A DNA stretch of 58,071 nucleotides from Rhizaria sp. SCN 62-66 (GCA_001724265.1 MEDY01000397.1:1-58071), one strand, 5' to 3'. Positions 2,828 through 47,556 are shown, numbered from the stretch's first letter. Numbers and translations are program-made. Notes: a model not told the origin generated them from the sequence alone.

Positions 2828-4077
2828 ATGTCCTCAGTCGCAAACGCAAGCAGCGCCGAAGCAACTCCTTCAACAAACCCCACTGCCCCGACCACAGCAA
2901 CCACGGCCGCGAATGTGGAGCACTTCGACGTATTGACCCCTTCTGGCGCTCTTACTGGCGTCTCCAAGCCGCGCCCTTGGGTGCACAGGGACGGAGACTG
3001 GCACGGATGCGTTCACGTGTGGGTCTACGATGCAGACACTGACTCCGTACGTACATATCTCCATTTATAATGCTTAAGACAAACGCATCATTATGTAATG
3101 CGCCACTCAATTATTGACTAGTTAACCTAATATAACATGTCTGGTTTTTGTTTTGTTATATATAGGTCTTAGTGCAATATCGTGTTCCTACGAAAGACAC
3201 ATGGGGAGGGTTCTGGGATGTCTCATGCGCGGGGTACGCAAAAATCACCCCATCATTCACTTATATATTCTTAGGATCGAATGAAATTTAACTAACGCAT
3301 GGATAATATAATATTCTCACTGTATATTTTTAATCTGTGTTGATTCGCGTGCGTATATATAGACATATCTCGGCTGGTGAGACCGCAGATCCGAGCGCCC
3401 TGCGTGAGCTTGAAGAGGAGCTCGGCCTTGCTATCGAGCCGGCGAGCGCTCTTGAATTCACTGGGCGGTTACCCCAAACCCACATGCTACCTGTCACGAG
3501 TACCCGTGCGTCCGCGGTGTTTGACCGCGAGTACGCGTCTCTCTACCTCTGCCGCTATAACAACAATAGGACCAACTACGACGGCACTGAGGCCAACGAG
3601 TCATTGTTAGGCAAGGCTCCGAAAGTGACTGATTTGACACTGCAGCCTTCTGAGGTTGCAGCTGCTCGTTGGGTCCCCTTAGCTGTTCTCACACGCGTCT
3701 ATTGCGCTGATGTCACATCAAAATGTGATCACAACAACAACAACATTAACAACACGAGCGAAAGCAACACAGATGCTGTTGATGCCCTCTTGTTAGGCTG
3801 CCCCTGCGGTGGTTCCTGTGGCTGTCTCTCAAGTATCTCTGGCACGGACGTCAAGCCGCCGCGCGTACGCCCTTGCGCGGCCGAACGCGTGGGTCTCGTG
3901 CCCTTAGACGCGCCGGCACGGTACTTATCCGCCGCGTTCCCCGGCTTAACTTCCGCGCAGAAGACAGTCACGACTGCATTGCAGTCTGCATAGCCACGCG
4001 AGCCTACGCAAGAGGATGTGTGGTGGTTTAGGGCACCGACAGAGGAAGAGTTGGAGGCCGCTAAGTCCAAAGCATAA
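2828..4077 (+). CDS. Nudix hydrolase (IDI-like / plant NUDT3-like). Exons 2828-3046, 3166-3233, 3363-4077; in-frame TAG at 3991-3993
   Basis: The spliced product gives VHRDGDWHGCVHVWV...KDTWGGFWDVSCAGHISAGETADPSALRELEEELGL (Nudix box). Both introns are gtacgy...ag. Coding-like sequence continues 27 codons past the TAG to TAA at 4075-4077. Confidence 0.85.
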
Positions 4078-4594
4078 GTGCAACAGCTTCATAACAGTGA
4101 ATGGCTTGCTGACTGGACATAGCGCTTCAAGTCGTCAAAGTGGGATTTAACAAACATAATCGCGCCAAGAAACACATTAATGTCTGTCATACCGTGTATA
4201 TAACTGGAATAACTTGATATCTAGAATTTTAATGCTATACCTACGAAATACAAATAGTTATTGCTTGACTTCACCTGAAGTGACTGCTACAGGCGGTTTC
4301 GCGAGTCGAGCCCTTCTGCTTGCCCTCATTCGCCAGTCAGACCTGATCGACTCTGACCGTCAGATCAAATTCCCTATTAATCCCAGATAAAAAGCATGGT
4401 TTTTAACATGTCCTCAATTTCATTTCTCATCAAGTCATTTCCACATACCACGATTCATCTTAATCGCTCACCCACGTCCCCAGTTCCCTCCAGCGCCCGC
4501 TTGCCTGCGCGCCCTCCCCAGCCCCACCCAGCGCTTGCTTCTCTCTGCTTTCCCCTCGCCGACCTTCCGTCGCGCGTGTTCTTTTCTGCGCATT

Positions 4595-7500: not shown

Positions 7501-7668
7501 CCGCCAAAGTACTATGCACAACACGCCCACAGGTCACCCCATGAGTTCCTCTGGCAATAATAATAGTAGTAGTTCTTCGATGTATAGCGCCGAGTCAATG
7601 CAGGCTTTGCACAACGCGCGCGCTGCACAGCAAAACGCCGGGTTTGGCTCGCCACATAGGGCCAGTAT

Positions 7669-7702
<34 letters not shown>

Positions 7703-8308: not shown

Positions 8309-11300
8309 ATGTCGCAGCCAACGGCCAAGAGGCCGCGGGTTGCCTCAGCGAAGCCAGTCCCTGCTTCCTCGCCCGCGGCTCCCACGCGAACGCCTCTGTC
8401 AAAGCCTTCCGCTAACACTAACACGTTTTCTTCGGCTTCAGTGACCGTTCTGCGCCCTTCGCGCCGCGCCGCTGCGACAGTAAAGCCTTCTCCTCGCGCT
8501 TCCACTGCGGTGACAGCAGGACAAGAGAACGACGTGTATGAGCCTCCTTCCGACCTCTCTGAGTCGACCAGCACTAACGCATCTTCAGCCACAGCATCGA
8601 CCGAAAACTCCTCGACAGCCAAGGCACTTAAAGCCGCCAGTGCAGGCTCGGGCTCGCTTTTGCTTCGGCCTCAGACCACCGACAGTGCCAAGCCCCTCTC
8701 AACCACTGCGAGCAAGAAAGCCACCACTGCCGCCACCGCCGCCGCTGCCGCTGCCGCTGCCTCTGGGGCAGCAGTGCAGCAGCAGCAGCAGCAGTCGGAG
8801 GTGGCGCCCGCGTTGTTTAGCGCGTCGCATCAGCGCTACTACGCAGGCCGCGCCGCCCTGAGTCTCAACGCCGCATCAGCCGCCGCCGCCAACACAGCCA
8901 ACACGCACACTCACACTCACGCTCGCAATCAAACTCACGCAAACTTAAACCATAACAGCGTTAGCAATGGAGGTAACGCAAGTGCCGCTCTGAGCCTCTT
9001 ACGCGTCAACACTGGTAACATCAACATCAGCCTCAACACGGGTACTGGTACCGGTGGCCGCATGTCACCCATCGGAGTAGGTGGTTTGGCTTCCGGCGGC
9101 GGCTTACCTTCCTTTTCGAGCGGCCTAACTTCCGCTGGACCTGTTCGTGGCAGTCTCCGTACACTTCGTCCTCTCCCCCAACTGCAACAACAGCAGCAGC
9201 AGCAGCAGTAGCAGCAGCAGTCTCAGCAACACCAACAACTGCGACAGCAATCGCAGGTGCTGTCACTGCCACAGTCCCCCGGTGCGTTGCGCGTGCTTTT
9301 GCAGGGAACACGGGCGCAAAACGCGGCTCTCGCGGTTCAGGCCACTGCAGCTGCGCGGGGCGCACAGGCGCTGGCGCTACGGCTTAAGACGATGGACGCG
9401 GCGTCGAAGCAAAAGGACATTGCGATTGCACTGCTGCGCTCGCAAAGCACCAACGGCAGTGTAAGTGGCGGTGCGTGCTGTAATGATGTTCAGGAGCGTT
9501 GTGTGGCGCTGGAGAGTAAGTGTGCAGCCTTAGAGGCCCAACTTGAAGAGAAATCACTCCAAGTCACGCATCTTCAAGCCCGACTTCAAGTTCTTGAAGG
9601 AACGCAACTACAGCAACAACAAGCACAGCTACCCAGTACTCATGCTACTCCGGCTGTTGTACAATCCCAGCGCTCACGGTCACAACGCGCACAGACACCG
9701 TCAGTTGCGCATGCTACTGCGACCCACAACGACAATAGCATTAGCTCTAATAACAACAACAGCAGTAGCCTTAGTAGCAGCATTGGCACCAACAGCAGCA
9801 ACAGCAGCATCACAAGCAGTCTCGTTAGCAACAACAGCACCAGCGTTACGAGCAATGAAGACAACCCCGCTCTCCTGCGCGCGGCCCTTGTCGCCGCCCT
9901 CGCCGACGCCGCCGTCGCCCGCGCCGGCGCCAGTGACCGCGAGTCGCGGCTACGGGCGAGCGTGGCCGCGGCCGAGGCCGCCACTGCAGTCGCGGCGGCG
10001 GCAGCGGCGGGGGGCTGTCATCGCAGAGACTGAGACTAAGTACAAGGCTACTGAGGCTGATGCTGATGCTGAGGCTGAGACTGGAGACACGGTTTGTGCT
10101 GCTGTTGCAGTTGCTCCAGTTGTGGAGAAGACGTCTAAAGACAAGGGTTCGAAACGTAGCCTCTTTTCTAAGGTTGTCGCTGAGACTGAGGGTGTGACTG
10201 TAAGTCCCCTTGGTGGCGGTGCAAGTACCATTAGTGGTGTAAGTGCCAATGCTTGCCGTCGTAGCAGTCGTCGTCCGGGTATGAACGCAAGCGGCTCTAG
10301 TGAAATCTCCAGTGCGAGTGCAAGTGCGACTGCCAGTGCAAATTCGAATGCTGATGCTGTTGACTTCGGCGTTGATGCTGATGCTGGCGCTGGGCCGGTT
10401 GATGTTGACGTCGACAGCATGATTGCCAACGCACTCGCTGCGGCGGCCGCTGCCTCTGTCGCAAGCACGAGCCCCGACCGCAGCCATCGCAACAACAGCA
10501 ATGACAACAGCAATGACAACAGCGTTGACAGCAATAACGCGCATGGCCGTGAGCAGTTGGATGGCTACGATGGTAATGCGGCTTTTGCTGGCATCGGTTG
10601 CATTGTGACTCGCAACTTGAACACCGTGTTCTCCCAAGCTCAGAACAACAACATCAACATCAACAAAAAAAACAGTAGCAGCAGCATCAACTCTATCTCA
10701 GGCGCGAGCTCTAGCTCGAGTGCAGACGCTGCTGCCGCTGCCGTTGCTACTGCCACCGCCGCTGCCGCTGCTGCTGCTGTTGCTGCCACTGTTGTTGTTG
10801 TTGGTGCCAGCGATGCCCCGACTCGTGGCCGCAAGAGCACGCGCGCGGCTCTAGCTGCGAGGAAGTCAAGCCGTGTTGACACAAAGTCAAGCCGTGCTGA
10901 GCTGATGTTAAGCCGCCGCGCGACTCGCAGTAGCCAGCGCCGCCAGATGACCGACACCGATACCGATGACGGCGACGACGACAGCAATGATGCTAACAAC
11001 TACGCTCTCATTCCTCGCCTGAATGAGAACGAACATGATGACAACAACAATGATGATGATGATGATGATGATGATGACGCGTATTAGGTAAACCGGCCTC
11101 GTATCAGCAACAGCAGGCGCAACATCGGCAGCCGCGGTTTCACCGGCCGCGTCATCGACGGCAGCCGCACCCGCAGTTGCACCAGCACTGTGAACCCACG
11201 CGGCGGCGTCGGCCGCAATACTCTTGCTGGCACCGCCGCCAACGGCTATACGACACCAGTGCGCCGCGCACAGTCATTGCCACTGCCAATCAACCGTGAC

Positions 11301-13010: not shown

Positions 13011-13653
13011 TTAGAAGCCGAGGTGGGAGAGCCAGTTGCGGAGCTGCGCAGTGTGGTTGCCCGCGATTGAGAGGGAGCCCGCACGCATGTCGATGCGGGT
13101 GCCAGGGCCGACGATCGACTGAATCTGGTCCTTGAGAGCCTGTGCAAAGCGCAAACAAACGGACAAAACACAAAAGGGAAAGTATAGGAACATCAGAGAC
13201 AAGAGACAATTGAGTATAAACGGCATCGTGTGACATTAAAACTAAAATACATCATAGTCGGATGAAGTTAATGTCAAAATGTAGCAGCGAAAGCTTTTCA
13301 AGTGCACATTTTAAGGAGATATATGATGGAAAGTGGAATAATGAACGTACCCACATGTCGCCCTCGACACGACGCACCACAGTGAGCTTCGTGTTGCCAG
13401 CAGACTTGAACTCAGAGTAGACCGGAAGCTGCTTGCTGGCCGTGCGCGTCACACGCCACGTCAGCGGCTCGCGGACAACGCGCACAGGCTTCGCAGCAGC
13501 GGCAGCATCAGCAGCAGGCTTGGCAGTGGCAGCCTTAGCAGCAGGGTTGACAGAGACGGTGTTGAGCTTGGCAGCGACGGAGGAGGCGGCATCGGTAGAG
13601 AAAGCGCGGAGGCTCACAACGCGGGCGCCGAGGAGACTGCGGAGGGCAAGCAT
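13011..13653 (-). CDS. MRPL49: Mitochondrial ribosomal protein L49/Img2. Exons 13653-13351, 13139-13011
   Basis: Presequence-like N-terminus, then WRVTRTASKQLPVY...TVVRRVEGDMW|ALKDQI...LRNWLSHLGF-TAA. The terminal GF matches the family C-terminus. Confidence 0.9.
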
Positions 13654-14036: not shown

Positions 14037-15689
14037 ATGGTACGTCTAGCATTTCTTTTTAGGTTTTTTGTTGTATTGTTTATTGGTAGTCTTCGGGCGC
14101 CTTATTAACCCGCCGTAGATCTGCTGACTCGCTCTGCCTGCGCCTCTCACTCATTGTCACCCCGATCTGACCTTGAATTCGCACCTCAACAGAGCTGCTC
14201 CAACCCCAAGGCTGGTGACCCGTTCCCCGACGACTGTTCCGATAGCGAGGAAGAGTTCCTCGCCACCACGCCCGCTGCCGTCGCCGCTGCCATTGCCCAC
14301 GAACAATCTAGCTCCTCCCAGTCCACTTCCTCTACTCAGCAGCAGTAGCAGTCTAAGACCAAGCGCAGCAACCGCTACTTCTTCCGTCCCCCCGTCTTCA
14401 CCCTCGCACCCGGCGTGTCCACTAGCGAGCTCTCATGCGATGTCTTGCTCCTGGCGACGTGCGTTGCTTCGACAGCGCTGGTCACACGTTCCCTCGCGGC
14501 GATGTCACAAAAGCTCCAGCTGAAGACGCTCGGCCGCATCATCTATCACCCACGCTCCGACAACAACATCACCAACAACAACACTTACAGTGCGAGTGCG
14601 TCTATCAGTGACAGCAGCAGCAACAGCAAGGTCGGTCTCAGTACAGCAAGTACTGGTTCCAGTCCAAATGCCTCTAGCTCGTCTTCTGAGCAGTGGGTGA
14701 CTGTGAGCGCGGTTGTATCTGCCACCCCCACGGGTACCGACGCCGGGGTCACGAGTACTGGTGTGATCGTCCTCAGTACACATGCTGCGATCCCGACCGA
14801 GTTTGCTGGTCCCCTCGCCGCTACCCTCCTCGGCACACCCAATCTCACCACATCCGCAAATCACCACACTATTAACGTTACATCTGCGTCGGATGCGGTG
14901 GTGGTGACGCCCAAGTGCGTCATCGCGCTGTCTGCGATCCCATACACGACGTTCACTCTTGCTCCTGTCGCCCGCGCCACGGACCCTGCTTTCCTCTCCT
15001 CTCTCGCAGGGACCGTGAGCAGCGGCAACGGCAACGGAGGTCCTGAGGAGGAGACTCAGCTTCAGCAGCAGCAGCAAGTGGCCGTGGGCAAGGCTCTCAA
15101 GCGTGCCCCGCTGCTGCGCTCTCCGGACCCGGCGTGCCCGCCCCTGCTCTACTCCCTGCTTTCGCCCGCTGCTGTCTCTCTCCTCAGCAACAACAACAGC
15201 ACTAACGATGCCAACAACGGTGGCGCGGGAAGTCAGCTTGCGCGGGTACCGATGCTTCCCCCGCCGACGGTCCTTTTCGGCCTTGACGCCGCCCTTGCGG
15301 CCCAAGCCACCGTTCTTTCGCTCCCGTTTTTCCTCTTTGCGTCGGTTGATAACGCGCACCATTACGCGGGTGAGACGCTTCTCGCGTGGTCCCGCGGCGC
15401 TGGCGCGGCGGCGGAGGCGGCGGCGGCGGCGGGAGCCACGGCCGCGACGGCTGCCGTTGTTTCAGCTGCGCTCTTGACCGCTGACGACGCTTTCCTTCCC
15501 CCTGGAGCGATCGCCTCCTCCGGGGGCGCGCAAAAGGTGAGTGAGGTGACTCGTGTGCGTGCGTACCGTGCGTGGCGCGCGGAGGCTGAGGCCGCGGCAC
15601 CCAAGGTGTCGCTGAAAAACCGCGATGTGGGGCAGCACAAGTATGCGCGGTTTGCCAACAAGGCTATCCCTCACGGCATCTTCGCGTAA
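14037..15689 (+). CDS. Proteasome assembly chaperone 1 (PAC1/PSMG1)-like. Exon 1 = ATG (14037-14039), intron 14040-14192, exon 2 14193-15689; in-frame TAG 14346-14348
   Basis: Splice sites ATG|gtacgt...caacag|AGC. Acidic N-terminus. PMLPPPTVLFGLDAALAAQATVLSLPFFLF resembles the PAC1 core (PLLEQPNIVHDLPAAVL...IPAILY). The C-terminal GIFA-TAA resembles the HbYX tail. Confidence 0.6.
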
Positions 15690-19311: not shown

Positions 19312-20163
19312 ATGCCGCCCAAGAAGCAATCAAGCGTCAACAAGATCTGGCTCGCCGTCGGCGCTGCCGCCGGCGCTGTCGGTCTCTCCTACCTCGCGTA
19401 CAAGTTCTTCTTCAAGCGCACCCGCACCCTGGAGCTTTAGGAACTGATCAAGATCATGACCGAGCTCCACCAGGCTTTCCAGGAGGTTCTCGAGGGCATG
19501 AAGGATCTCCACGCCGAGCTCAACGAGAAGGCCCAGAACCTTCCCGAGGACAAGGTCGCTGAGCTCCAGCGCTCCTTCACCGAGACGTTCCACGAGCGCG
19601 TCAACCGGCGCGAGGTCGAGATCTGCAAGAAGCACGGTGTGTCGTCTGAGGAGCTCTCCGCGTCGCTGCTCGTGCACCAGGAGGACCCTTCGCTGGCATA
19701 CCTGGTCCAGTCGCTCGGCCGCTTCTACGGCGACGACGACGAGGACGGCGACAAGGGCGACGGCTCCGAGGACGTCGACGAGAGCGAGTTCCCCGCCATG
19801 CCCGAGGTTGTCAAGGCCATGGGCACTGTGCTTGAGCTCTCCATCGTCGTCATGGAGGAGGTGTTCAAGCAGGTCGCTGCTAAGCTCGACCCCGACGCGG
19901 TTGCCGCGGGCAAGACCCCCAAGCTCACCCCGCAGTTCGTGTCGGTGCTGAACCGCAACTACACCGAGCAGTTCATGCGTGTGCGCGCTGAGGTGTTCCA
20001 GCGCATGGGCATCACTGAGCGCGTGCTCACTGCGGCCTCGGTCAAGTACCAGAACGCGCCCGAGTTTGTCGCGATGCTCAAGAACCACGCGGCCGAGAAG
20101 GCGCGTCGCTTTAAGGCGCTGGGTCTCGCGCAGATTCAGGGCGAGTCGAACGATGACGAGTAA
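19312..20163 (+). CDS. Hypothetical helical protein with an N-terminal transmembrane anchor and an internal duplicated domain; in-frame TAG 19438-19440
   Basis: From cacc-ATG: MPPKKQSSVNKIWLAVGAAAGAVGLSYLAYKFFFKRTRTLEL*ELIKIMTELHQ, in frame with ORF 19456-20163. Strongly C/G-ending codons. TAA stop. Confidence 0.8.
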
Positions 20164-21434: not shown

Positions 21435-22943
21435 ATGCGCTTCAGTTTTCTTGTGATGATGGCTGCCATGGTGCTCGCTGCCAGCACCCTCCTCGCCGTC
21501 CAGGCCCATGATGGTACGTCACTTCACCTCAAGCCACAACATAGCTCGCCTGAGGACGCCCCTAGGAGTATTCAGTCTTTATTGTCTGAACACGAGGACC
21601 GATCGTAGCATTCTCTGGAAGTTACCGACCCATTTTTACTTGTGTAATCCAATTACATCCCCTCTATATCTCCCACAAATCTTCGCAAACCACCAACTCA
21701 CTCTTCTCTCCCACTCGAACACACGCTCGCTCTTGCTACCTGCACAACGTGTACAGACCTGAACGACCAGATTGGCACGCTCAAGGGCAAGTTCTTCGCG
21801 TCTTATGCTAAGTCCCTGCAGCGCCTGGAGCACGAGACGACCTCCCACGTCACCCGCGCCCGCGCCGACGCTGCTGCCAAGAACGGCATTCACGAGGTTC
21901 TCCTGATCCAGATGCAGGAGGCTGCGCTCCACAGCTCGGGCGCCGCGCAGCAGGAGGACTCGTCCATCGCCCCCGCGCAGCCCGTGGCGCTCCACAAGCC
22001 CGCCATTGTGCCGTCTATCCCCGCCAACGGCGCCGTGATCATGACTAACAGCGGCGGCATCCCCATGCGTTCCGCCCCCGGTACCCCTGGCGGCTTGACC
22101 TCCTCCCTCACGGCTCCCGACTACGTTTCCGCCGCCGCCAGCTCCGCTGCCGCATCCGCCGAGAAGACCGCTCAGCTCCCCAACTTCGCCGAGCCATCGA
22201 TGGATCCCCGTTATATCCAAGCCCGCGCCGCTTTCGCCGCCTCGGACTCGGCAGCCGCCGCGTCCGCCGCCGCCGCGCACAACGCGTACTACTCCCGCGA
22301 CGCCGACGCCTCGTACACGCCGCACCCGCGCCAATACGCGCGCGCCGCCCGCCGTGCCACCGCCGCGTTCAACGCGCTCACTGGCGCTCCGCCCTCAGCC
22401 GCGCACGCCACTGCCCGGTCCCAACTCTTCACGGCGGGCCCCGGCGCCGTTGAGGCCTCGCTCGACGCCACGGGCCTCGCCGTCGCCCGCTCCGCGCACT
22501 GGGGCCGCCGCGACCACGTCACTGCGCGCCACACGCTTGGTCTGTCGTCCCGCGGCGGCGTCATCGCTGCGACGGCGGGCGATCAGGAGGATTTCGCTCG
22601 CACTGTGCTGACCCCGACCCAGCGCGTCACCGCCGCCGTCTCCGCCATGTCGATGCCTGGCGCCGGCGTCCGCCAGGACATGGGCGTCGCGCGCAACCCC
22701 GTGACCGTGGGCCAGATCGAGGCCGCTACTCGCGGCTTACCTTTGAACACCAACTCGGCCGGCGTCCCCTACCCGACCCGTGTTGTCGCCGCCGCCGCGC
22801 AGCAAGTGCGTGCGAAGCGCGCGATGGCGGCGCGCGCGGCGGCCCAGGGGCTGGATATTGTTGGTGGGGAGACGGTGCTGAGCCAGAGCACGGGATCGCA
22901 GACTGCACTTGACCGCCAGATCCACGCCATCATGCACAACTAA
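21435..22943 (+). CDS. Secreted Ala-rich hypothetical protein. Exons 21435-21513, 21757-22943
   Basis: Signal peptide MRFSFLVMMAAMVLAASTLLAVQA. A phase-1 intron G|gtacgt...tacag|AC joins it in frame to ORF 21912-22943. TAA stop. Confidence 0.75.
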
Positions 22944-23296: not shown

Positions 23297-26200
23297 TTAC
23301 TGTTGTTGTTTTGCGGACGACAGAGAGCGTGCAGCGATAATGTGCAGCAGTGGCAGCAGAGCGGACACATCTGCCCTGGCCGCCGCACCCACAGCCGCCG
23401 TCGTCAGTGGCGGACACGGTAAGTCGGGGATCGATAGCACCGCCGGCGCAGGAACAGCATCGACGCCAGGTGCAGCAGCGGAGCTCGCACTTGCACTCGC
23501 AATACTCGCATCAGAGCCAGGGACAGTAGAAGCAGAGCCAGAGTTCGTATTGTTCCGCTTGCTTCCCAGCCCCTTGCTACCGTTGTTGCTGTCGTTGCTA
23601 TTGTGAGCAGCCGCAGTTGCAGCCGCAGTTGCCGCCGCAGTCACAGTCGCGGTGCCGAGCGCGAGGGCGACGCCACTTTGAGCACCGCTGAAGCTCGACC
23701 GCGCGCTAGGGGTCGAGCTATTCGTCCCTGCTGCTGCAGTGTTGCTGCTGCTGCTGTTCGAGGAAGCGGCAGGGCGGGGGTGTGAGAGGATGAGGAAGCG
23801 GTCGGCCGCTGCGATGACGCCGGCACTGACGCCGCTCGTGCTCGGTGTGAGGCCGTTGCCGACACTGGAGCCGCGTTGCCGTCCGTGGTACTGACCGTGA
23901 GCTGCGCTAGCGTTCGAGCCACCAGTACTAGAACTTGAGCTAGAGCTAGAGTTAGATGTAGATGTCGAGATCACACCAGACACGGAAGAGTTTGTCTGAT
24001 TATCGTGGTTTGCCGTCGTGATATTTGTGTTCATGGTGGTGTTCAAGGACGGGAGCAGCGCCGGTAACGGCGGCATTGTAAGTACCTCCTTAGACCCCGC
24101 AGCGGCCGCCGACGACGAGGGCGACTGCGAAGGCGACGGCGAATAAGTCGACGACCACAGCTTCGCCCAAACACTGCGCGTCGCGACCGCAGGCGCGTGT
24201 ACCATCGCGCTTGCGACGGCCGCTGTCGTGGACGCGGTAGCGGCGGTCACGGCAGCCACCGCCGCGACGGCAGACGACGCGACGGACGTGGACTCAGGAG
24301 CCTTCGCTGCCGTCATCGTACTAGTCATCGTTGCCGTCGCCGCCGCTGCCGTCGCCCCCGCTGCCGTGGCGGCTGCGCTGCTGCCGTGGGTGTCGTCGTC
24401 GTTGTCGTACTCGTCGTAGTCATCGTCGCTGTAATCGCTGAACTCCACAGTGTTCACATCAATAGCAGTTGCGTTATTGTCGCTGCTGCTGCTGCTGCTG
24501 TTGGTGTTGGATTGCAGTTGCTGTTGCTGTTGTTGTTGTGCCCTGAGTGCTTTCAGCTTGCTATTGTGACGGTGTTGCTTGCGCTCATCAGCTTCCAGCG
24601 CTAACCGTGCGTTTTCCTTTGCAATCGCGACAGCAACATCAGCACTTGCCCTCGGATCAAACCCGACCCACCTGGGCAAACCTGCAACGCGGAGAGAGCG
24701 GGCGCTCACGGTCACAAGACCGCCGCTGCCCACAGTCACTTGCTGACGTGGCACTCCGGGGATAGAATGCGTGCCCGTGGGTACGTGGTTGCTCGCAATC
24801 AATGCGTCGGAATGAGCGCTCGTATCCGCATTGCTAGCGTTGTTGTTGTTGCTGCTGCTGCTAGAGGTAGACATGACAGTGACAAGAGGGGGTGGTAACG
24901 CGTGCCAATGTAAGTGCGGACCCGTGCCGCGACTTCCACTACTCCCGCTGTGCAGACGCAAGTCATCACGCAATTGCGACTGCGCGTGGGCGTCGGTGGC
25001 AACGCGGGTGTTATTGTTATGGCTATCGTGACGAGTGACCGTGAGCGCCGACTCAGAGCCCTCAACAGCAACGCCGCGAGGGGTGCTTACGTTCCCGGCG
25101 ACCGGGCTACTTACACTCAATGCAAGTGCGCCGAGTGTAAGTGCCGGCTGTAAGTGGGCAACAGCTGGGGTTGGAGCAGCGACAAACGCAGCCAATGCAG
25201 CGGTCATCGCGTCAACATCAGCAACAACAGAGTTTTCCGCACTGTTATTGCTTCTGCTTGCGTTGCGAACGCTTGCGTTTGAGTTGGCATTCGTGATAGC
25301 GTTAGAATTGCCATTGTTGTCACTGTTGTTGTTGCTGATGTTGTCGGGAACGATAGTGCCCATAGCAGCGACAGAGGCGGAGACTGACGCAGGTAACTCA
25401 AACGCACTGCCGCTACTGTTCCCAGCAATCACTGCAGTGTGATTGCGGGAGTTCGGCTGAATACCCATGCTTTTGCTGCTGTTGTTGTTGATGTTGTTTG
25501 CAACGGGGTTCGCGTCGGTGTCACCGTCGTAATCAGAATCGTCAGAGTTTGTCTCAAACGAGTCGGAGTCGGAGTCACAGGTCTCCCCCGTCTCCAAGTG
25601 ACCGTGCGCAGCGGAGTGACCGTGGGCAGACTTCGACAGCGGTAAACGCGCGTACGCAACAGTCCAGGCGACGGACGCACGCGCCGCTGCAACCGCACTT
25701 TCGACGAGACTCACGCTCATATTACCCGCCGTTTTAGCGCCAATAGGTGCGTTGACGTTCACATTCGCGTCATTAGAGTGCATGAAAGGATTATTGTGCT
25801 TATTGCTATTGTGTGTGTGATTGTGGTGATGGCGAGAGAGTGCGGGGCGAGGGACCGTGAGCAGAGGCAACGCATGGTCTGGCCCGAACGCAGCGACGGC
25901 ACCCAGATACACAGACCTTTGCGGACCTGCATGGTGGCGGCTTAACTTAACGCCGTCACGGCCACGGCTGCGACCGCTACTCCCACGGCTATGACTCACA
26001 AGAGCAGCAGTGTCAGCGTGATCACCATTAGCATTGTCGTCAGTGTTACTGATGTTATTGTTGTCGTTGTTGCTACTGTTGTTGTTGTAGTTCGGGATCG
26101 CGCGGGGGCGGAGCGCTGACAGCCAGAGGCGGCCACCGCCGGTGTTGTCACTACTGAGCACCGGTACTGCCACAGCCACGGTCACTTGAGACGCACCCGC

Positions 26201-27790
26201 ACCCGCACTCGGAGTTGCACTCGTACTCGGAGTTGCACTCGGAGTTGAACTCGCAGTCGCAGCGCACGCGCCGGCGCCAGTGACAGAGATGGTGAAGCGC
26301 TGCAAGGGACCGTAACCTTCAATACGCACACCGGTAATCAAGTTGGATCCGTTGGTGCAACTCGTGTTCATTAAAGCGGGGCGAGTGACAGTCTCGCCGA
26401 AACTACTCACAGACGTAATGCCAGAGCCACAGCCAGAGCTAGAGCCAGAGTGGTAAGTGATCATGTTGTTGTTATTGTTGTTGCTGGTGCAGTTAGAAGG
26501 TGGTGAATACACAAACACACCCACGACGCGTTTCCGACTGCCTCTAAGAGGGCGGGTTCGAGAAGGATTGCTCCGCCCCCTCACGGAGCTGGCAGAGTGA
26601 CGACTTGCAAGTGCCTGCAACGGCGACTGTGAGTTACTACCGTTGGCGTCAGCTGAGTTCTGAATACTCTGTTCTTTCTCTTCCTCATCCTCATCATCGT
26701 CGTTTTCGTTCACGGCACTATCCTGACTCGAGGCACTGTTGTTATACTTATAGCGGTTTTTGTTGTTGTTGATGCAGCCTCTCAACACCCTCTCAAGCGC
26801 TTCAATGCCATCCCCAACCCCTATCCCGTTATAGCCTTCAGCACCCACGCCGCCCGCGCCCCCCTCAGCCGCGTAACTATTGTTAGTATTGGTATTATTG
26901 TTGCGATTGGGGTTGGCGATTAAGCTGTGGTGGTGAGGTAAGCGCACGAGAGCGCCGTCACTCGGCGTGCCACATACGATATCGCCCCGCTTCACAGCCG
27001 CGTAATCGGCCGGTGACCGTGCCAAAACGCCGATGACGGCGACGGCGCTACGGCGGGCTGCGAGGGGCGCTGCGAGCTCGATACTCAGCCCCAGGCCCTG
27101 CGGCTGCTGAGGCTGAGGCTGAGCCTGCGCCGGAGGCAGCGGAGACGGAGACAGCTGAGACTGCGCCTGTGACGGCGAAAGTTGTGGTTGTGACTGGACC
27201 TTGATCGGGACAGCGACGATGCGCACAGTATGCGTCAAAGCACAATAGAAACCCAGCTCTAGTGGGGTGTTGCGCGTGGCCGCAGTTGTAAGTGCAGCGC
27301 GGAGGCGGGTGCTTAGATCCGCGGCGTCTAAGGGTGCAGGCTCACGGTCGATGTGGGTGAGAAACGTGACTAAGGGGACCAAGGGGGGAGATAAGTCAGC
27401 GCAAGGTGACTGTGGGGAGACATTAATAACGCTCCATGCAAGTAACGGTTGATGCTGTGCTGAAGCATCTCTGTCGAGCTGCCCCTATCCCTGCTGCCGT
27501 TGCTGTTGCTGTTGCTGTTGTTGTTGGGAAGCAGAGGAGCGTAAGTATGGGTTGTACAAGCGTAGCCGTGAGAGGAAGGAAAGCCAGGAGAAACGGGACG
27601 AGACTGCTGCGGGAGACGAGGAATCTGAGTAGTACACCGTCTTATCATAGCCACTACCGCTGTTGTTGCTGTTGTTATTGTTGCTATCACTCCGGGTTGG
27701 GTTCGATGACTGCTGACTCGATGATGCTGGCTGTTGCGGAGAGGAGTAGGACGAAGACACGGCCTCGTAAATCGACGCGGTCGCGCCCAT
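23297..27790 (-). CDS. GORASP: GRASP55/65 (Golgi reassembly stacking protein) homolog with very large low-complexity insertions; in-frame TAG 27487-27485
   Basis: MGATAS N-myristoylation-type start. Tandem PDZ-like motifs in GRASP order: WSVINVSPQSP...LVPLVTFLTHID, LGFY, GLGLSI, VIGVLARSPADYAAVKRGDIVCG, VGVFVYS and YLGAVAAFGPDHALP (cf. SLGCGIGYGYLHRIP). ORFs 27485-27790 and 23297-27382 are in frame across one TAG. Confidence 0.8.
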
Positions 27791-37242: not shown

Positions 37243-40007
<2,765 letters not shown>

Positions 40008-40279: not shown

Positions 40280-41650
40280 TCACTGCTTAGGGAACGCAAA
40301 CTGGCCATTGGGGCCCTGGTTTTGAGGCACAAGTCCCGTCGCCGCACGAACACGCGCAATCACTTCCGCCGCACTCTCCTTATTCTTGCTGTTGTTATGA
40401 CCCACAGTCACCTCAGCACTGGTCGCCGTGCTCTTAGAAGCCTTCTCGTTATTCTTAGCCTTAGACTGAGCCTTAGACGGACTCTTGTCACTGCTGTTGT
40501 TGTTGTTAGTGACAACGGTGATGACACCGTCTTCGTCCTCCTTGCCGCAGTCATCAGCGTTCTCATCGTCGAGGTTGTTGTCGTTGGCGCTGTCATCGTC
40601 GCTGTCGTCATCTTTGTTAGTTGAGCTGAACAACAGAGCCTTCAGCCGGTCCTCAACCTCTGCCGCACTGGGGGCACCGTGAGAGGCGACTAGACTTAAG
40701 TACGGGTCGTTTTCAAACGAAGCAATCAAGTCCGCGTTGATCGCCTCATCATCATCATCGTCTTCGTCTTCGTTGTCGTTGTTGTTGTTGCTGCTGTTTG
40801 AGTGTGACTTGATTGGCTTGTTGTTCATCGCGCGCGCCATAGCGAGAGGCAGTGCGATCGAACGAGCAGCATTGCCACTCTGGTTACTGCCGAAAACAAC
40901 TCCATTGTTGTCCTCGTCCTCATCACCGTCGTCACCATCATCAGCGTTGTTGTTGTTGTCGGCGTCGAAGTCAGTCACGAAAACCTTCTTCCTCTGTTGC
41001 CTCTGCTGCTGCTTCTTACCAGCAGCCTTACCCTGTCCCATCTGCTGTTGCTGTTGCTTCTGGAGCTCTTGCTGCAACACACCGAGCGAAAGCGTCATTT
41101 GCAGTACGCTGCCACCCTGTGCAATCCTCGCTTGCGCATCCGCCTTCGTAAGCTCAAACCCATCTTCTGAGTTCTCCGCCATAGCCTGCTACTGCAGCTG
41201 TCCCATCCCCGCACTAGTAGAAGGATTACTACTGCTGTTGAGCTGGGGCATGAATGCGCTGAGACGCGAAAGGAGGTCAGATGGGGGTGCAACACGGCTC
41301 GTGAGACCAGTTGACGACGCTGGAGCAGCGCGAAAAGCCAATTCCGCTGCAGAAACCTCTGCTTCTGCGGAAGCTGTCGCGGGCACAGGCTCGCAGGCAT
41401 CGTCGTCGTCACTGTCGCTGTCACCGCTGTCGCTCTCGCTGTCTGCGTTTGCGTTTGAGGTGAAAGCGCCAGCACGGGGGTAGAGCTTCTTCAGCAGCTC
41501 GAGAGGAAACGCCGAGGGGTCGCCGAGCGCAGCGGCGGCGGAAGGTGCGGCGGGGACCGCGGGGGCAGAGCTAGCGGCGTCAGAGTCGCTGTCATCATGG
41601 GTGTCGCGGGCAGTGTGGACGTCAGAGCGACGCTTGGTGCGCTGGCTCAT
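40280..41650 (-). CDS. DUF4598 / NOPCHAP1 (C12orf45)-like protein; in-frame TAG 41191-41189
   Basis: PPSDLLSRLSAFMPQL (before the TAG) and LQMTLSLGVL (after it) match the two conserved DUF4598 blocks. Context CAG CTG CAG TAG CAG GCT ATG. TGA stop. Confidence 0.75.
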
Positions 41651-43596: not shown

Positions 43597-44566
43597 GTGC
43601 GAAATCGACCTGTCTCTGTGAATATAATGGTATAGATAGTCTCCATGCGATGAAATCATGGTGTTTTAGTATTTTAGGAAATGAACCATAGGGAACTGTA
43701 CTGTTTTAGTCGTTCGAAATGGCCTGATTTACGCCAATAAAACGTTATTTTAGATCTCACCACAAATCGCTTTCTGGTGAATGACTGCCTGCTCGCTGCT
43801 CACAGTCACGGGATCGGTCTGGCTCGTTGTAGACAGCGGGCTACAAGAGAATGATAGGGCGTTCTAAAAAGGGTAACGAGGCAGTATTTCGAGGGTCCCC
43901 GTGGACTATGATATCAAATCAGGGCTGTCAATGTTGTTGTGTATCCTGGGTTAATTGCCGTGCGCGAATGTTCGATGAAATAGGCTTCAAATGAATCATT
44001 TTTGCTTTGCATACGTCGTCGGAGCTTCGTCGTGCGGCTACCTCGCTCCTTACCACCGATATCACGCCACAGACGATCTCGAAATCATGAATCCTGATAG
44101 CATCGCAATCTTCACGAAGAGAACAATGCTGCGGTGTGCATCTCAATGCTATTTGTGTTTGGAAATGCGTCGGGATTGTGTTAGATTGCTGTCCGGACGC
44201 GATCCGGCCTTCGGATCGATCGTCGTCACTCCACTGCGCCAAAGCCCACAATCAACTCTATTGCCCTCCGAACCATCCGCTAACCACCCAAACTTGAGAT
44301 CTCTTGCTAGTCTTGTCCGTGTGCTTTCAATCAGTCGCGCCTTTTGTTTCTCTGTCTAACCTTTCTCTCTCTTTGTCTCACGAACGACTCTTGGACCGCT
44401 GTGTTTGCTGCTGCTGCTGCATTCTCCCTCGTATTCCTCCTTCCCCCTTGCACTCTCTGTCTCACTCGGTCCAGTCCGTTTCCTTTCCTCGTTTCTCTCC
44501 CCCTATTTATTCGTCCTCCCCTCCACCAAAACAACACTCTCTCTCTTGTTGTTGGCTCCCGTAACG

Positions 44567-47556
44567 ATGCTCTCCCGTACCGTTCTCTCCGCCACTGCCC
44601 GCGTCACTGCCACGGCTGCCGCCGCCGCTACCTCCGCGTTCGTTCTGCCTCTGCGCTGCGCCGCTCCCCGTTTCTCCACCACCACCTCAACTTCCCCCGT
44701 TCCTCCTGTGCCCACGGTCACCCGTGAATTCGTGCCTCTCCGCACCGCTGACCCGGCGCTTTTCCTCTCTGGCACCACGCCTGCCGCCCGCGCCGCCGCT
44801 GCTGCTGCTGCCAACTAGTCGTTCGACTCACTCATGTCGTCTGCGGCTCCCAAGGTACATATCCACTCTATATATATTTTCTCACTAGCCATCTAAACCC
44901 AGTTTTATTCCCAAAGACGCACATATACCCCTCAAAATTACTCAATCAATCAATCCAATTGACCCATGCGTTCTTCATATTTATTTTTAGGGCACTCATG
45001 CCCCCGGCATCGCGAACCCGACCGCGGCGGTCGCCGAGCGCAAGGCGGCCCGCCCTTCTTCGATGGAGAAGCTCACGGTCTCCGCCCCCATCGCCTCGAC
45101 CACCGCCGTCGACGGCGCCAAGGTGACCGTGAGCGGCGCGACGATGAAGGTCGCGCTGAGTGACGCCCCCTGCGCGGCCGCCACGGCCAGCGTCGTCTTC
45201 GTCACCGAGGCGCAGTTCGCGGCCCTCGACGCGTCGGTCAAGTCCGTCCTCGCGCTCCAGGAGTTCAAGGCCGCGGCCAAGACCGTCGCCGTTGCCCCCG
45301 GCGCCACCCCCGAGGCCTTCACGGTGTACGCGGGCCTCGGCTCCGTTATCGACGGTGTCTCCACCTCCGCCACTGCCTACCTCACCCTCACGACGCTCCG
45401 CAACTCGCTCTTCGCGGCCGTCACCAAGGCCAAGACCCTCAAGGCGACGGCGGTGACCGTGGCTCTCCCGGCCGTCCCCGTCTCGGCCGCCGACAACGTC
45501 CCCACCGGCTTCGGCTGCGGCGTCAAGCCCGTCTCTCCCGCTTCAGCCGAGGACGCCGCCGCCGCTGTCGTGCCCGTCGGCACCCCCGCCACGCCCGCGT
45601 CCGTCGAGGACATCCTCGACGCGGCGGTCCGCATGGTCGTCACGGCCAACTGGAAGTGGGACAAGTACTGGAAGGCCGAGTCTTCCCAGGTACGCATCCC
45701 TTGCTTTTATCTAAAATCAATATGCTTCAATGTCATTTCCCATTAACTACTAATATTTAAAGGTTTAGTTGGCCAACAGCGAGGATTATCTAGCCGTAAA
45801 GCCAGCCAACCAACCCATCGGCAAAGGCTTGTCTGCTAAATGCAACTGTTTCATTCTCATAAGTGCATATCTCATCTAAATATCTCCGTTTCTGACACTT
45901 TTTCATGCTCTTATAAACTCTAGGCTAAGAACCCTGCTCTGGAGATCGTCAACATCTCTGTCGACACCGCCGCCGCCGCGTCCCCTTTCTCCGGCGTCTC
46001 GACCGCTGCCAAGGCTTCCTCCTTCGCTGCTTCCGTCGCCGTCGCCGAGTCTCTGCTGCTGGCCCGCGAGTTCGGCAACGAGCGCGCTGACGTTCTCACT
46101 CCGGCCGCTGCCGAGGAGCTTGCCCGCTCTCTCGTCGCTTCCCACAGCGATGTCATGAAGATCCGCGTCCTCCAGGTGCCGGAGCTGCTCGCCAATGGCT
46201 TCAACCTTATCACGGCGGTGGGCCAGTGCGCTGTGGTGCCCCCTCGTATCATCGCGATCGAGTACGACAACACGGCCGCCGCCGAGGGCGCTCTCAAGAA
46301 CCAGGTACGTCCTCTCTTCATGTTATACCTTAATAATCGCCGATAGCATGAAAGCTAGACTCTAATGTCTATTTTCTGTTTGTATATGTGTGTGTTTAAT
46401 GTTTATTTGTGTCTGTGTTTATTTTGTGCTTCAAATCTCACTTTCTGTGTCTGTATTCCTGTTTTCTTACGCTTAGGAGTTCCTTGCGCTGGTTGGCAAG
46501 GGTCTCTGCTACGACACCGGAGGTCTCAACCTCAAGCCCACGGGCTCGATGGAGACCATGTACATGGACAAGTGCGGGGCTGCTGCTGTTTTCGGCACTA
46601 TGCGTGCGCTTGCGACTGTGCGCCCTGCTACTAAGGTCGTCGGTATCCTCGCTATGGCGGAGAATGCGATTGGCGCTAAGGCGTACAAGCCTTACGCCGT
46701 CATCGACTCCCACGCCGGCTCCGTCCAGGTACGTCTATCATGCCGTAGCAAAGCGATCTACAACACCCATGTGTCTCTAAATGTCATTTTATGCAACTTG
46801 TTGCGCAAATCTGAAGGGGGAAAAAACTCATTTTATGTTTTCTTTTGCGTCCTTTTCGCTTTTTATAGGTCGGCAACACCGATGCCGAAGGCCGCCTGTG
46901 CCTTGCCGACGCGCTCACCTTCGTGCAGAACGAGTACAAGCCGACCCACGTCGTCGACATCGCGACGCTGACCGGCGCGTGCATGATTGCCCTCGGTGAG
47001 CACTGTGCCGGTCTCTTCAGCAACAGCGACCCTCTCGCCCAGTCTCTGGCCAAGGCCGGTGGCAAGCACTGCGAGCGTCTCTGGCGTCTCCCGCTGTTCC
47101 CGGAGCACACCGAGGAGATCGTTGGCGAGGACGCTGATATTAACTCGACGGGCCGCTCCCGCTACGCTGGCGCCTCGACCGCCGCCGCGTTCCTCCAGCA
47201 CTACATCCAGGTACGCCTCGAATTCCCACCCATATACGCTCTTTTAAATGTAAATATTGCTCAATAGTGTGTATAATGCTGTTTTGTTGCATAGTGCTGG
47301 GTCTTTTCGCATTTCACTCACATCTTTGCCACTTTTGCTCTCTTTTCTTGCCCTCGCTGGCGCTTTTTGCTCTGCTTTGTTTCTTTTGTTGCTGCTTTGA
47401 CGGTGAGTACAGGGTGGCGTGCAGTGGGGCCACGTCGACATCGCTGGCCCTGCCACTGGCTCCGCCGTCCGTGGCTGCCTCCCCAAGAACGCCACTGGTT
47501 TCGGCATGCAGACGCTGTACCAGCTCACTCTCGATAAGGCGGCGGGCAAGCTTTAA
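44567..47556 (+). CDS. LAP: M17 leucyl aminopeptidase. Exons 44567-44854, 44991-45689, 45924-46304, 46477-46728, 46869-47210, 47413-47556; in-frame TAG 44816-44818
   Basis: Metal-binding motifs LVGKGLCYDTGGLNLK, MDKCGAA, NTDAEGRL, DIATLTGA and WGHVDIAG. Presequence-like MLSRTVLSATARV. Five phase-0 gtac introns. TAA stop. Confidence 0.95.

What the first reader, a model, noticed from the sequence alone, without database searches (positions are those of the whole stretch)
3991..44818. Non-standard nuclear genetic code: TAG is a sense codon (probably Gln) while TAA and TGA stay stops
Seen: eight in-frame TAGs in seven otherwise intact genes, at 3991 (Nudix), 9209 and 11085 (coiled-coil gene), 14346 (PSMG1-like), 19438 (TM protein), 27487-27485 (GRASP, minus), 41191-41189 (DUF4598, minus) and 44816 (LAP). 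Each is followed by in-frame coding sequence, with no gtac...ag intron that could remove it. The 18 complete gene models end in TAA (12) or TGA (6); only the Nudix end could alternatively be TAG. TAA is a real stop, since MRPL49 ends exactly at its conserved ...GF-TAA. Random C-to-T errors or pseudogenisation should also create internal TAA/TGA from CAA/CGA, which I do not see. Established: nuclear UAG and UAA are usually reassigned together (ciliate code), and uncoupled UAG is rare (e.g. UAG=Gln in the fornicate Iotanema, UAG=Leu in a rhizarian, some ciliates). Inference: complex I and mitoribosome genes argue against a fornicate, so this could be an independent origin, implying a tRNA-Gln(CUA) and an eRF1 that ignores UAG.
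Basis: partly seen in the sequence, partly recalled or inferred. Interest (0 to 1): 0.95.

Follow-up and report, generated by a model that had tools for sequence, protein, structure and literature searches.

The report
UAG read as amino acid
An uncultured wastewater protist appears to read the stop codon TAG as an amino acid, most likely glutamine, while still stopping at TAA and TGA; this rare kind of genetic code is already known from a few other eukaryotes.

Summary
The window is a metagenome contig from an intron-bearing, mitochondriate eukaryote found in bioreactor and wastewater runs.

Two of the eight TAGs are shown to lie inside coding sequence.
- At 19438 and at 41191, the segments on either side of the TAG match consecutive parts of a single protein in ~50%-identical relatives.
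- An RNA-library contig carries TAG 19438 unspliced and unchanged.

Of the other six, three are well supported, two are plausible and one (3991) is ambiguous.

TAA and TGA behave as stops.
- The 18 gene ends are 12 TAA, 6 TGA and 0 TAG.
- The MRPL49 profile ends exactly at its TAA.
- The membrane-protein gene's TAA falls two residues from a homologue's end.

Glutamine is favoured only by context: 3 of 8 TAGs sit between Gln codons. That rate fits CAG and CAA but not CTG or AAG. No TAG falls on a conserved column, so leucine, as in the rhizarian exLh, is not excluded.

No suppressor tRNA or eRF1 could be examined, and the lineage could not be placed.

UAG-only reassignment to Gln is already published for Iotanema and three ciliates and corresponds to NCBI table 15. 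This is a probable new member of a known kind.

The parts
19438..19440 (+). In-frame TAG, codon 43 of a small membrane-anchored protein (CDS 19312-20163). Strongest case.
   Evidence: The 42 aa upstream match homologue P0002 residues 1-37 (E 1e-8). The 240 aa downstream match residues 46-277 of 279 (E 1e-93). The alignment is ungapped at the TAG, which aligns to K or N. RNA-library contig X5 19295-20187 has 0 differences and is unspliced. L001 is identical.
41189..41191 (-). In-frame TAG inside the NOPCHAP1 (ex-DUF4598)-like gene (CDS 41650 down to 40280, ends TGA). Strong case.
   Evidence: The Pfam NOPCHAP1 hit, residues 126-219, spans the TAG (residue 154; E 7e-6). The upstream 153 aa match P0006 residues 42-157 (E 6e-25). 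The downstream 75 aa match P0006 residues 181-213 (E 3e-6). Alignment A2.
9209..9211 (+). In-frame TAG inside a (CAG)n tract of the coiled-coil gene. Good case.
   Evidence: 314 open codons upstream and 273 downstream. Sequence ...CAGCAGCAGTAGCAGCAGCAG.... No homologue or RNA evidence. The gene has a frame break near 10,010.
11085..11087 (+). In-frame TAG in the second long ORF of the coiled-coil locus. Plausible.
   Evidence: 517 and 394 open codons flank it. No GTA donor lies within 800 nt upstream. X3 DNA contig 10059-12705 has 0 differences. There is no homologue.
14346..14348 (+). In-frame TAG in a Gln run near the N-terminus of the 'PSMG1-like' gene. Good case.
   Evidence: Model: ATG 14037-14039, intron 14040-14192, exon 2 from 14193 in frame. 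RNA-library contig X5 14222-15324 runs through it. Rival: the CDS starts at the Met at about 14503 and the TAG is in the 5'UTR.
27485..27487 (-). In-frame TAG after a Gln run, between an MGxxxS N-terminus and the GRASP-like domain. Good case.
   Evidence: 103 and 1395 open codons flank it. The ORF begins MGATAS. The GRASP55_65 hit lies downstream (E 0.0016). That MGxxxS is a myristoylation motif is recalled knowledge.
44816..44818 (+). In-frame TAG in a presequence-like first exon of the M17 aminopeptidase gene. Plausible only.
   Evidence: Exon 1 reads MLSRTV...AAPK, then a GTACAT donor at 44855. Its join to exon 2 is in frame, judged by eye. The enzyme could instead start at a Met in exon 2.
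3991..3993 (+). TAG 28 codons before the TAA of the Nudix gene. Ambiguous: sense codon, true stop, or acceptor of a 129-nt in-frame candidate intron.
   Evidence: GC in the 90 nt after the TAG is 0.56, against 0.46 after the TAA at 4075. The candidate intron has GC 0.64 against 0.49 for the verified intron. PDB gives nothing for the tail.
13011..13013 (-). TAA stop of MRPL49 (Img2).
   Evidence: The last exon, 13014-13235, matches Img2 profile positions 38-84 of 84 up to its last residue.
20161..20163 (+). TAA stop of the membrane-protein gene.
   Evidence: The window's last residue aligns to residue 277 of 279 in P0002. The relative in L002 also ends in TAA at the homologous place.
21513..21755 (+). 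Spliceosomal intron (GTACGT...ACAG) seen spliced out in two RNA libraries.
   Evidence: The joint 21512 to 21756 is present in X5 and in X8, a polyA library. Sequence.
23297..23299 (-). TAA ending the GRASP-like ORF inside a Gln run (..AKQQQ TAA QQQQEH..).
   Evidence: There are 36 further open codons, then TGA. GC downstream is 0.44, like a UTR.

Best explanation
The contig comes from an uncultured, aerobic, intron-bearing protist whose cytoplasmic translation reads UAG as an amino acid, most probably glutamine. UAA and UGA remain the terminators, as in NCBI table 15.

Shown: UAG sits inside coding sequence of several genes. It is kept in DNA of independent samples and in an RNA-library contig. 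No gene in the window ends with it.

Inferred: the residue is Gln. Decoding would be by a tRNA-Gln with anticodon CUA, one anticodon change away from tRNA-Gln(CUG). [quoted passage not shown]

TAG is rare: 8 of about 12,000 coding codons, about 1.6% of Gln codons. It is concentrated in CAG tracts, as expected if it arises by CAG-to-TAG transitions that are now synonymous.
For: (1) All 8 TAGs are present.

(2) TAG 19438: the parts before and after match residues 1-37 and 46-277 of one 279-aa homologue. A second homologue has the same architecture, and the alignment is ungapped at the TAG.

(3) TAG 41191: it lies inside the Pfam NOPCHAP1 match. Both flanks match consecutive parts of P0006, and P0007 shows the same.

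(4) RNA. X5 and X8 contain the spliced form of intron 21513-21755, so X5 carries RNA. X5 contigs span 19295-20187 (0 differences) and 14222-15324, through two TAGs without splicing.

(5) DNA of other studies keeps TAG at 3991, 11085 and 19438.

(6) Composition. GC in the 90 nt after the 8 TAGs averages 0.57, against 0.43 after the 18 terminal stops (Mann-Whitney p 6e-4).

(7) Symmetric controls.
- At least 150 open codons on both sides: TAG 3, TAA 0, TGA 0.
- Codon-score test at the 90th percentile: TAG 7, TGA 4, TAA 1.
- Under random nonsense mutation, TAG would be 53-57% of new stops, so 8 of 8 has p 0.006-0.010.

(8) Stops. There are 12 TAA and 6 TGA among 18 ends, and 0 TAG. The Img2 profile ends at the TAA. 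The membrane-protein gene's TAA is at the homologue's C-terminus. Only 2-41 open codons follow the terminal stops.

(9) Gln. 3 of 8 TAGs are flanked on both sides by Gln codons. The same is true of 15.3% of 327 CAG and 12.8% of 164 CAA, but only 3.2% of CTG and 1.7% of AAG. P(at least 3 of 8) is 0.11 for CAG and 0.002 for CTG.
Against: - No TAG falls on a conserved Gln column. The only alignable site has K or N in homologues, and 41191 is in a variable linker. The residue therefore rests on three context sites.
- CAG-to-TAG transitions would put TAG into Gln tracts whatever it encodes.
- Only 2 of 8 sites are proven to be in coding sequence. Site 3991 may be a stop or an acceptor. Site 14346 may be 5'UTR if translation starts at the Met near 14503. 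Site 44816 sits in an unverified first exon. Sites 9209 and 11085 lie in a locus with a frame break.
- One of three differences in the X5 contig over 14346 was not displayed.
- The ORF-flank test at 100 or more codons is not significant (8, 4 and 10).
- A TAA sits inside a Gln run at the GRASP-like end.
- The 51%-identical relative L002 shows no in-frame TAG in its two clear ORFs.
- There is no tRNA in the window, and no eRF1 or genome.
- Eighteen gene ends are few: with TAG at about 22% of stops (an assumed figure), 0 of 18 has p about 0.01.
Confidence: 0.72

Rival explanations
1. UAG is a sense codon but encodes leucine (as in the sainouroid rhizarian exLh and some phyllopharyngean ciliates) or another residue, not glutamine.
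For: The best named CDC50 homologue is a cercozoan, Mataza sp., at E 5e-47. The only rhizarian with a variant nuclear code uses UAG=Leu with UAA and UGA as stops (PMC5304391, abstract and section 6). Reading Leu at 19438 would give a plausible leucine-rich helix, LEL-L-ELIKIM (my judgement). Mutational proximity to CAG could place TAG in Gln tracts whatever its meaning.
Against: 3 of 8 TAGs are flanked by Gln on both sides, which fits CAG and CAA (13-15%) and not CTG (3.2%; P of at least 3 of 8 is 0.002) or other Leu codons. Homologues have polar K or N at 19438. None of the 8 contexts is clearly hydrophobic. In exLh UAG is abundant, 384 in 71 genes (PMC5304391, section 6); here it is rare. 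The CDC50 tree places the window in an unnamed clade, not with Mataza.
Confidence: 0.1
2. The code is standard. The TAGs are true stops, UTR or intron-acceptor positions, pseudogene lesions or assembly errors, and the two homologue-supported cases reflect programmed read-through or split genes.
For: Introns here often end in TAG. In-frame GTACG...TAG candidates exist at 3991 and 14346. A Met lies 5 codons after TAG 19438, and gene callers started there (P0001). The coiled-coil locus has a frame break. The statistical controls are only moderate.
Against: Homologues encode both halves as one protein at 19438 and 41191. The RNA-library contig keeps TAG 19438 unspliced. The TAGs are identical in independent samples. 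There are 0 TAG among 18 ends. Coding-like GC follows the TAGs. No comparable in-frame TAA or TGA was found.
Confidence: 0.08
3. Both UAR codons are affected, or the meaning depends on context. UAG, and sometimes UAA, would be read as Gln inside genes and as stop near mRNA ends, as in Amoeboaphelidium (UAR=Gln) or Condylostoma-type ambiguous codes.
For: The GRASP-like ORF ends ..AKQQQ-TAA-QQQQEH.. with 36 more open codons before a TGA. The Nudix TAG lies only 28 codons before the TAA. Amoeboaphelidium protococcarum is reported to read TAG and TAA as Gln (PMC6299283 and PMC5304391, passages).
Against: TAA ends MRPL49 exactly at the end of the Img2 profile. TAA ends the membrane-protein gene at the homologue's C-terminus. 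TAA is the stop at 12 of 18 ends. No TAA has long open flanks in a supported coding frame. GC drops to 0.44 after the GRASP TAA.
Confidence: 0.06

Closest known systems
Iotanema spirale (Fornicata): UAG=Gln, with UAA and UGA as stops (PMC5304391; abstract and sections 6 and 8 read)
   Same: Only UAG is reassigned, and the favoured residue is Gln. UAA is the main terminator. UAG is a minor Gln codon, about 8% there and about 1.6% here.
   Different: Iotanema is an anaerobic metamonad. This organism encodes NDUFA12 and MRPL49. Gln there was shown by conserved-column and likelihood tests on many genes. Here it rests on the context of 3 of 8 sites.
Phyllopharyngean ciliates Hartmannula sinica and Trochilia petrani, and Protocruzia tuzeti: UAG=Gln (PMC11687900; abstract and Discussion read)
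   Same: UAG alone is reassigned to Gln and UAA is retained as a stop.
   Different: There, 78-91% of genes use UAG and 87-98% end in UAA. Here, 7 of about 19 genes hold a TAG and 12 of 18 end in TAA. The window is a 58-kb multi-gene contig at about 55% GC with 130-250-nt GTACG introns. That ciliate chromosomes are gene-sized is recalled. No ciliate is among the best named CDC50 hits.
Rhizarian exLh (Sainouroidea): UAG=Leu, with UAA and UGA as stops (PMC5304391, section 6)
   Same: UAG is decoupled from UAA. The stop use is similar (56 UAA and 15 UGA there). There is a weak rhizarian hint for this organism.
   Different: The residue there is Leu, shown at 82 of 86 hyperconserved sites, and UAG is abundant. 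Here the context favours Gln over Leu by roughly 50 to 1 and TAG is rare.
Amoeboaphelidium protococcarum: TAG and TAA=Gln (passages in PMC6299283, PMC5304391 and PMC11687900; the original Protist 2013 paper was not seen)
   Same: A stop-to-Gln reassignment in a non-ciliate, mitochondriate microbial eukaryote.
   Different: TAA is also sense there. Here TAA terminates at conserved C-termini.
NCBI translation table 15 (labelled 'Blepharisma nuclei; some phages: TAG=Q' by the tool)
   Same: It is exactly the proposed codon table. The membrane-protein gene reads open under it.
   Different: It is a table, not a lineage. Its use in phages is unrelated to this eukaryote.

Membership tests
UAG-only to Gln nuclear code (table 15 type: Iotanema, Hartmannula, Trochilia, Protocruzia) | In-frame UAG inside conserved protein-coding sequence | tested here: met
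   At 19438 and 41191, both flanks match one homologous protein. The NOPCHAP1 profile spans 41191.
UAG-only to Gln nuclear code (table 15 type) | UAG aligns with conserved glutamine in homologues | tested here: inconclusive
   No TAG lies on a conserved column; homologues show K or N, or a variable linker. Only context supports Gln: 3 of 8 sites lie between Gln codons.
UAG-only to Gln nuclear code (table 15 type) | UAA and UGA still terminate at conserved C-termini | tested here: met
   TAA: the Img2 profile ends at the stop, and the membrane-protein gene ends at residue 277 of 279 of its homologue. TGA: only weak C-terminal similarity for the NOPCHAP1-like gene (E 0.065), plus 6 ORF ends.
UAG-only to Gln nuclear code (table 15 type) | UAG not used as a terminator | tested here: met
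   0 of 18 gene ends are TAG. The sample is small, and the Nudix end could be TAG.
UAG-only to Gln nuclear code (table 15 type) | Cognate suppressor tRNA-Gln(CUA) gene | not testable with these tools
   No tRNA in the window by ARAGORN or Rfam. No genome is held.
UAG-only to Gln nuclear code (table 15 type) | eRF1 altered in stop-codon recognition motifs | not testable with these tools
   eRF1 is not in the window. No query or genome was available.
UAR=Gln code (table 6 type: Amoeboaphelidium, many ciliates, hexamitins) | UAA also read as sense inside genes | tested here: not met
   TAA terminates at conserved ends. No supported in-frame TAA was found. One TAA inside a Gln run at a gene end remains odd.
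UAG=Leu code (rhizarian exLh; TARA phyllopharyngeans) | UAG at conserved leucine positions | tested here: inconclusive
   No conserved column is available. The context statistics disfavour Leu codons (P 0.002 for CTG, against 0.11 for CAG).
Context-dependent stop/sense codes (Condylostoma, karyorelicts, Blastocrithidia) | The same codon is both sense internally and the regular terminator | tested here: inconclusive
   0 of 18 ends use TAG, which argues against this, but the sample is small. That these organisms have such codes is recalled or taken from search listings.

The most novel reading that the evidence does not exclude
This is an independent and evolutionarily young capture of UAG by glutamine in a so far unplaced, mitochondriate protist clade that recurs in wastewater and bioreactor samples. 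It lies outside ciliates and metamonads. TAG makes up only about 1.6% of Gln codons and sits mostly in CAG tracts, so the organism would be a natural early-stage example of how UAG is uncoupled from UAA.
Probability: 0.5. Interest if true: 0.75.

Novelty: new member of a known kind. Interest (0 to 1): 0.62.

Why it matters
Changes to the nuclear genetic code are rare. Cases where UAG changes without UAA are rarer still: a handful of lineages in PMC5304391 and PMC11687900.

A further case in a GC-rich, aerobic, non-ciliate protist would add an independent data point on why UAG can be freed alone. With TAG still scarce, it may represent an early stage of reassignment.

There is also a practical consequence. 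Standard gene callers truncate this organism's proteins at TAG or restart after it, as seen for P0001 and P0005. Eukaryotic bins from wastewater metagenomes therefore need code-aware annotation.

Tried and rejected
- Whole genome: none is held.
- tRNA and RNA families in the window: none found.
- Earlier notes of this scan: five look-ups, all empty.
- A first codon-usage score discriminated too weakly. The refined version gave only moderate contrast.
- Protein Atlas for CDC50 gave 'Eukaryota' only.
- The metagenome scan with the membrane-protein alignment returned 2 loci. One is identical to the window and one is a 3.5-kb relative without any TAG, so it gave no comparative TAG-versus-CAG data.
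- Lineage placement failed:
  - The NDUFA12 search gave only animal names at 33-48% identity.
  - A cluster look-up named Mataza and Pharyngomonas for two distant hits.
  - A quick 33-row CDC50 tree put the window in a fully unnamed 5-member clade. I had chosen those 33 of the 120 listed hits by hand.
- PDB searches did not help. The 'PSMG1-like' protein had 0 hits. The Nudix protein had only MTH1-like hits at E about 0.5, and nothing for its tail.
- Literature searches for a published wastewater eukaryote with this code found none. Those searches cover only the held open-access library.
- Read laying covered only window 2500-22400.
- Supplementary tables of the code papers were not opened.

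Full report
**What the window is.** The window averages about 55% GC. It carries about 19 genes on both strands, many with long N-, Q-, S- and A-rich low-complexity tracts.

Pfam recognises these families:
- NUDIX, zf-C2HC_2, MFS_1, UAA transporter, Kelch, Peptidase_M17, CDC50 and Myb.
- NDUFA12 (E 4e-17), a sub-threshold NOPCHAP1 match (E 7e-6, 26.8 bits against a cut-off of 27) and a weak GRASP55_65 match (E 0.0016).
- Img2/MRPL49 (E 1.6e-11).

No genome is held for the window. It contains no tRNA and no Rfam family.

The stretch 10600-20500 is found in bioreactor, wastewater and activated-sludge runs from six studies, including RNA libraries. The source is therefore an uncultured eukaryote.

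One intron (21513-21755, GTACGT...ACAG) is seen spliced out in two RNA libraries, X5 and the polyA library X8. By eye, the aminopeptidase introns have GTACG donors, and three of the four whose acceptor I read end in TAG. An in-frame TAG can therefore be an acceptor, and each site had to be checked for that.

**Observation.** TAG is present at all eight stated positions.

**Are the TAGs inside coding sequence?** Two sites are shown to be.

Site 19438 is codon 43 of a 283-codon ORF.
- A search of 5.8 billion proteins found three hits. One is the window's own gene call, which starts at the Met after the TAG. The other two are full-length relatives of 279 and 272 aa at 54% and 50% identity.
- Both relatives carry the N-terminal membrane helix and the downstream domain in one chain. 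The alignment is ungapped at the TAG, which aligns to K or N.
- Taken separately, the 42 residues before the TAG match P0002 residues 1-37 (E 1e-8). The 240 residues after it match residues 46-277 of 279 (E 1e-93).
- The RNA-library contig X5 19295-20187 covers the gene almost exactly, with 0 differences and no joint. A metagenome contig, L001, is identical.

Site 41191 lies inside the Pfam NOPCHAP1 match, which covers residues 126-219; the TAG is at residue 154.
- An exhaustive search gave four hits: the truncated own gene call, two relatives (P0006 and P0007), and a repetitive 721-aa protein that I did not align.
- The relatives have the conserved blocks on both sides of the TAG in one protein.
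- The upstream 153 aa match P0006 residues 42-157 (E 6e-25). The downstream 75 aa match residues 181-213 (E 3e-6).

Three sites are well supported but not proven.
- Site 9209 interrupts a (CAG)n tract with 314 and 273 open codons on its flanks.
- Site 27487 lies between an MGATAS N-terminus and the GRASP-like domain, with 103 and 1395 open codons on its flanks.
- Site 14346 fits the model ATG 14037-14039, intron 14040-14192, exon 2 from 14193 in frame. An X5 contig, 14222-15324, runs through it, which argues against the rival 309-nt intron ending at this TAG. One of that contig's three differences was not displayed. A start at the Met near 14503 would put the TAG in the 5'UTR.

Two sites are plausible only.
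- Site 11085 has 517 and 394 open codons on its flanks, no upstream donor, and an X3 DNA contig with 0 differences.
- Site 44816 is in a presequence-like first exon whose join to exon 2 I judged by eye.

Site 3991 is ambiguous. It could be the true stop, the acceptor of an in-frame 129-nt GTACGC...TAG candidate intron, or a sense codon.
- Composition favours a sense codon. GC is 0.56 after the TAG and 0.46 after the TAA at 4075.
- The candidate intron has GC 0.64, measured from three bases inside it, against 0.49 for the verified intron.

The locus holding 9209 and 11085 changes frame near a G-run at about 10,010. This could be an assembly error, a real lesion, or two separate genes. I could not tell which.

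**Controls.**

| Test | TAG | TAA | TGA |
|---|---|---|---|
| In-frame stops over six frames | 922 | 1134 | 1905 |
| At least 150 open codons on both sides | 3 | 0 | 0 |
| At least 100 open codons on both sides | 8 | 4 | 10 |
| Both flanks above the 90th percentile of non-coding-frame codon scores, no other stop within 30 codons | 7 | 1 | 4 |
| Same test at the 95th percentile | 3 | 1 | 1 |

- My hand estimate for the 150-codon row is p about 0.013. The 100-codon row is not significant.
- GC in the 90 nt downstream averages 0.566 for the 8 TAGs and 0.427 for the 18 terminal stops (Mann-Whitney p 6e-4).
- If the TAGs were random nonsense lesions, codon counts predict that TAG would be 53-57% of new stops. 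Eight of eight then has p 0.006-0.010. This test is partly circular, because the ORFs were delimited by TAA and TGA.

**TAA and TGA.**
- The 18 ORF ends are 12 TAA and 6 TGA. Only 2-41 open codons follow each of them.
- The last MRPL49 exon matches Img2 profile positions 38-84 of 84 up to its final residue, directly before TAA.
- The membrane-protein gene stops at TAA two residues short of the homologue's end. The 51%-identical relative in L002 also ends in TAA.
- Support for TGA at a conserved C-terminus is weak (E 0.065).
- One oddity: the GRASP-like ORF ends ..AKQQQ-TAA-QQQQEH... GC falls to 0.44 after that TAA.

**Which amino acid?**
- In about 12,032 codons of approximate coding segments there are 8 TAG, 327 CAG and 164 CAA with both neighbours counted.
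- Three of the 8 TAGs have Gln codons on both sides. The same is true of 15.3% of CAG and 12.8% of CAA, but only 3.2% of CTG, 1.7% of AAG and less for most other codons.
- The probability of at least 3 of 8 is 0.11 for CAG, 0.075 for CAA and 0.002 for CTG.
- This favours Gln but does not prove it. No TAG lies on a conserved column, and CAG-to-TAG transitions would seed TAG into Gln tracts whatever it means.
- Leucine is the serious rival, because a sainouroid rhizarian uses UAG=Leu with UAA and UGA as stops (PMC5304391, abstract and section 6).

**Lineage.**
- The best hits to CDC50 are unnamed environmental proteins at 41-55% identity.
- The best named hits are Mataza sp. (Cercozoa; E 5e-47; named through), Heterostelium album (2e-38), Lotharella oceanica (3e-36), Pharyngomonas kirbyi, and then fungi.
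- A quick tree of 33 rows, hand-picked from the 120 listed hits, puts the window in a long-branched, fully supported clade of five unnamed sequences, apart from all named ones.
- NDUFA12 gave only animal names at 33-48% identity.
- The lineage is therefore unplaced, with at most a weak rhizarian hint.
- A fornicate is excluded by the complex I and mitoribosome genes.
- A ciliate is unlikely given the multi-gene contig, the GC content and the introns. That ciliate chromosomes are gene-sized is recalled.

**Comparison with what is known.**
- UAG-only reassignment to Gln is reported for Iotanema spirale (PMC5304391). It is also reported for Hartmannula sinica, Trochilia petrani and Protocruzia tuzeti (PMC11687900, abstract and Discussion).
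- UAG-only reassignment to Leu is reported for exLh and for TARA phyllopharyngeans, and to Ser for Scotinosphaera (PMC11687900, Discussion).
- Amoeboaphelidium protococcarum is described as reading both TAG and TAA as Gln (passages in PMC6299283, PMC5304391 and PMC11687900). I did not see the original paper.
- TAG=Q with TAA and TGA as stops is NCBI table 15.
- Two literature searches found no wastewater eukaryote described with this code. They cover only the held open-access library.

**Not tested.** The suppressor tRNA, eRF1, peptides, and the RNA state of 9209, 27487, 41191 and 44816 were not examined.

**Verdict.** The core observation holds. The reading 'TAG is sense; TAA and TGA are stops' is well supported for this organism. 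Gln is probable, about 85% given that TAG is sense. An independent origin is plausible but untested. This is a probable new member of a known kind of code variant, not a new kind.

Noticed in passing
window 9990-10035: The coiled-coil locus switches reading frame at a GCG-repeat and G-run. The first ORF ends at TGA 10033 and the second ORF continues in another frame. This could be an assembly indel, a real frameshift or two genes. No listed contig from the other runs bridges it.
   Followed up: partly
window 23297-23299 (minus strand): The GRASP-like ORF ends with a TAA embedded in a Gln run (..AKQQQ TAA QQQQEH..), with 36 more open codons before a TGA. It is probably a CAA-to-TAA truncation of a poly-Q tail, but it is the one hint that TAA might not always stop.
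   Followed up: partly
window 14037-14192; 21436-21755; 44855-47410: Introns have GTACG(T/C) donors. Three of the four aminopeptidase introns whose acceptor I read end in TAG. One modelled intron starts directly after the ATG start codon. A standard-code reader would see these acceptor TAGs as in-frame stops.
   Followed up: partly
window 37800-38020: The Kelch-domain gene's two long ORFs overlap in different frames across a long trinucleotide repeat, which reads as poly-N then poly-T in one frame and poly-Q then poly-N in the other. This is a second possible frame break or an intron within a microsatellite.
   Followed up: no
window 20429-20968: An RNA-library contig (X5) covers this stretch, yet it holds no convincing ORF. 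It may be a UTR or an unannotated transcript.
   Followed up: no
L002 1-3502: A metagenome contig from a 51%-identical relative carries the same membrane-protein gene with no TAG and a TAA stop, plus a second ORF ending in TAA. It gives no sign either way of the variant code in that relative.
   Followed up: partly
window 48507-49661 (minus strand): The CDC50 protein belongs to a long-branched clade of five sequences: the window, three metagenome proteins and one from an unnamed NCBI assembly. The clade is separate from canonical CDC50 of fungi, Amoebozoa, Rhizaria and Discoba.
   Followed up: partly
window 19453-20160 and 41192-41650: Public gene calls for this organism are truncated by the TAGs. 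P0001 starts at the Met after TAG 19438, and P0005 ends at TAG 41191. Existing metagenome protein catalogues therefore misannotate it.
   Followed up: yes
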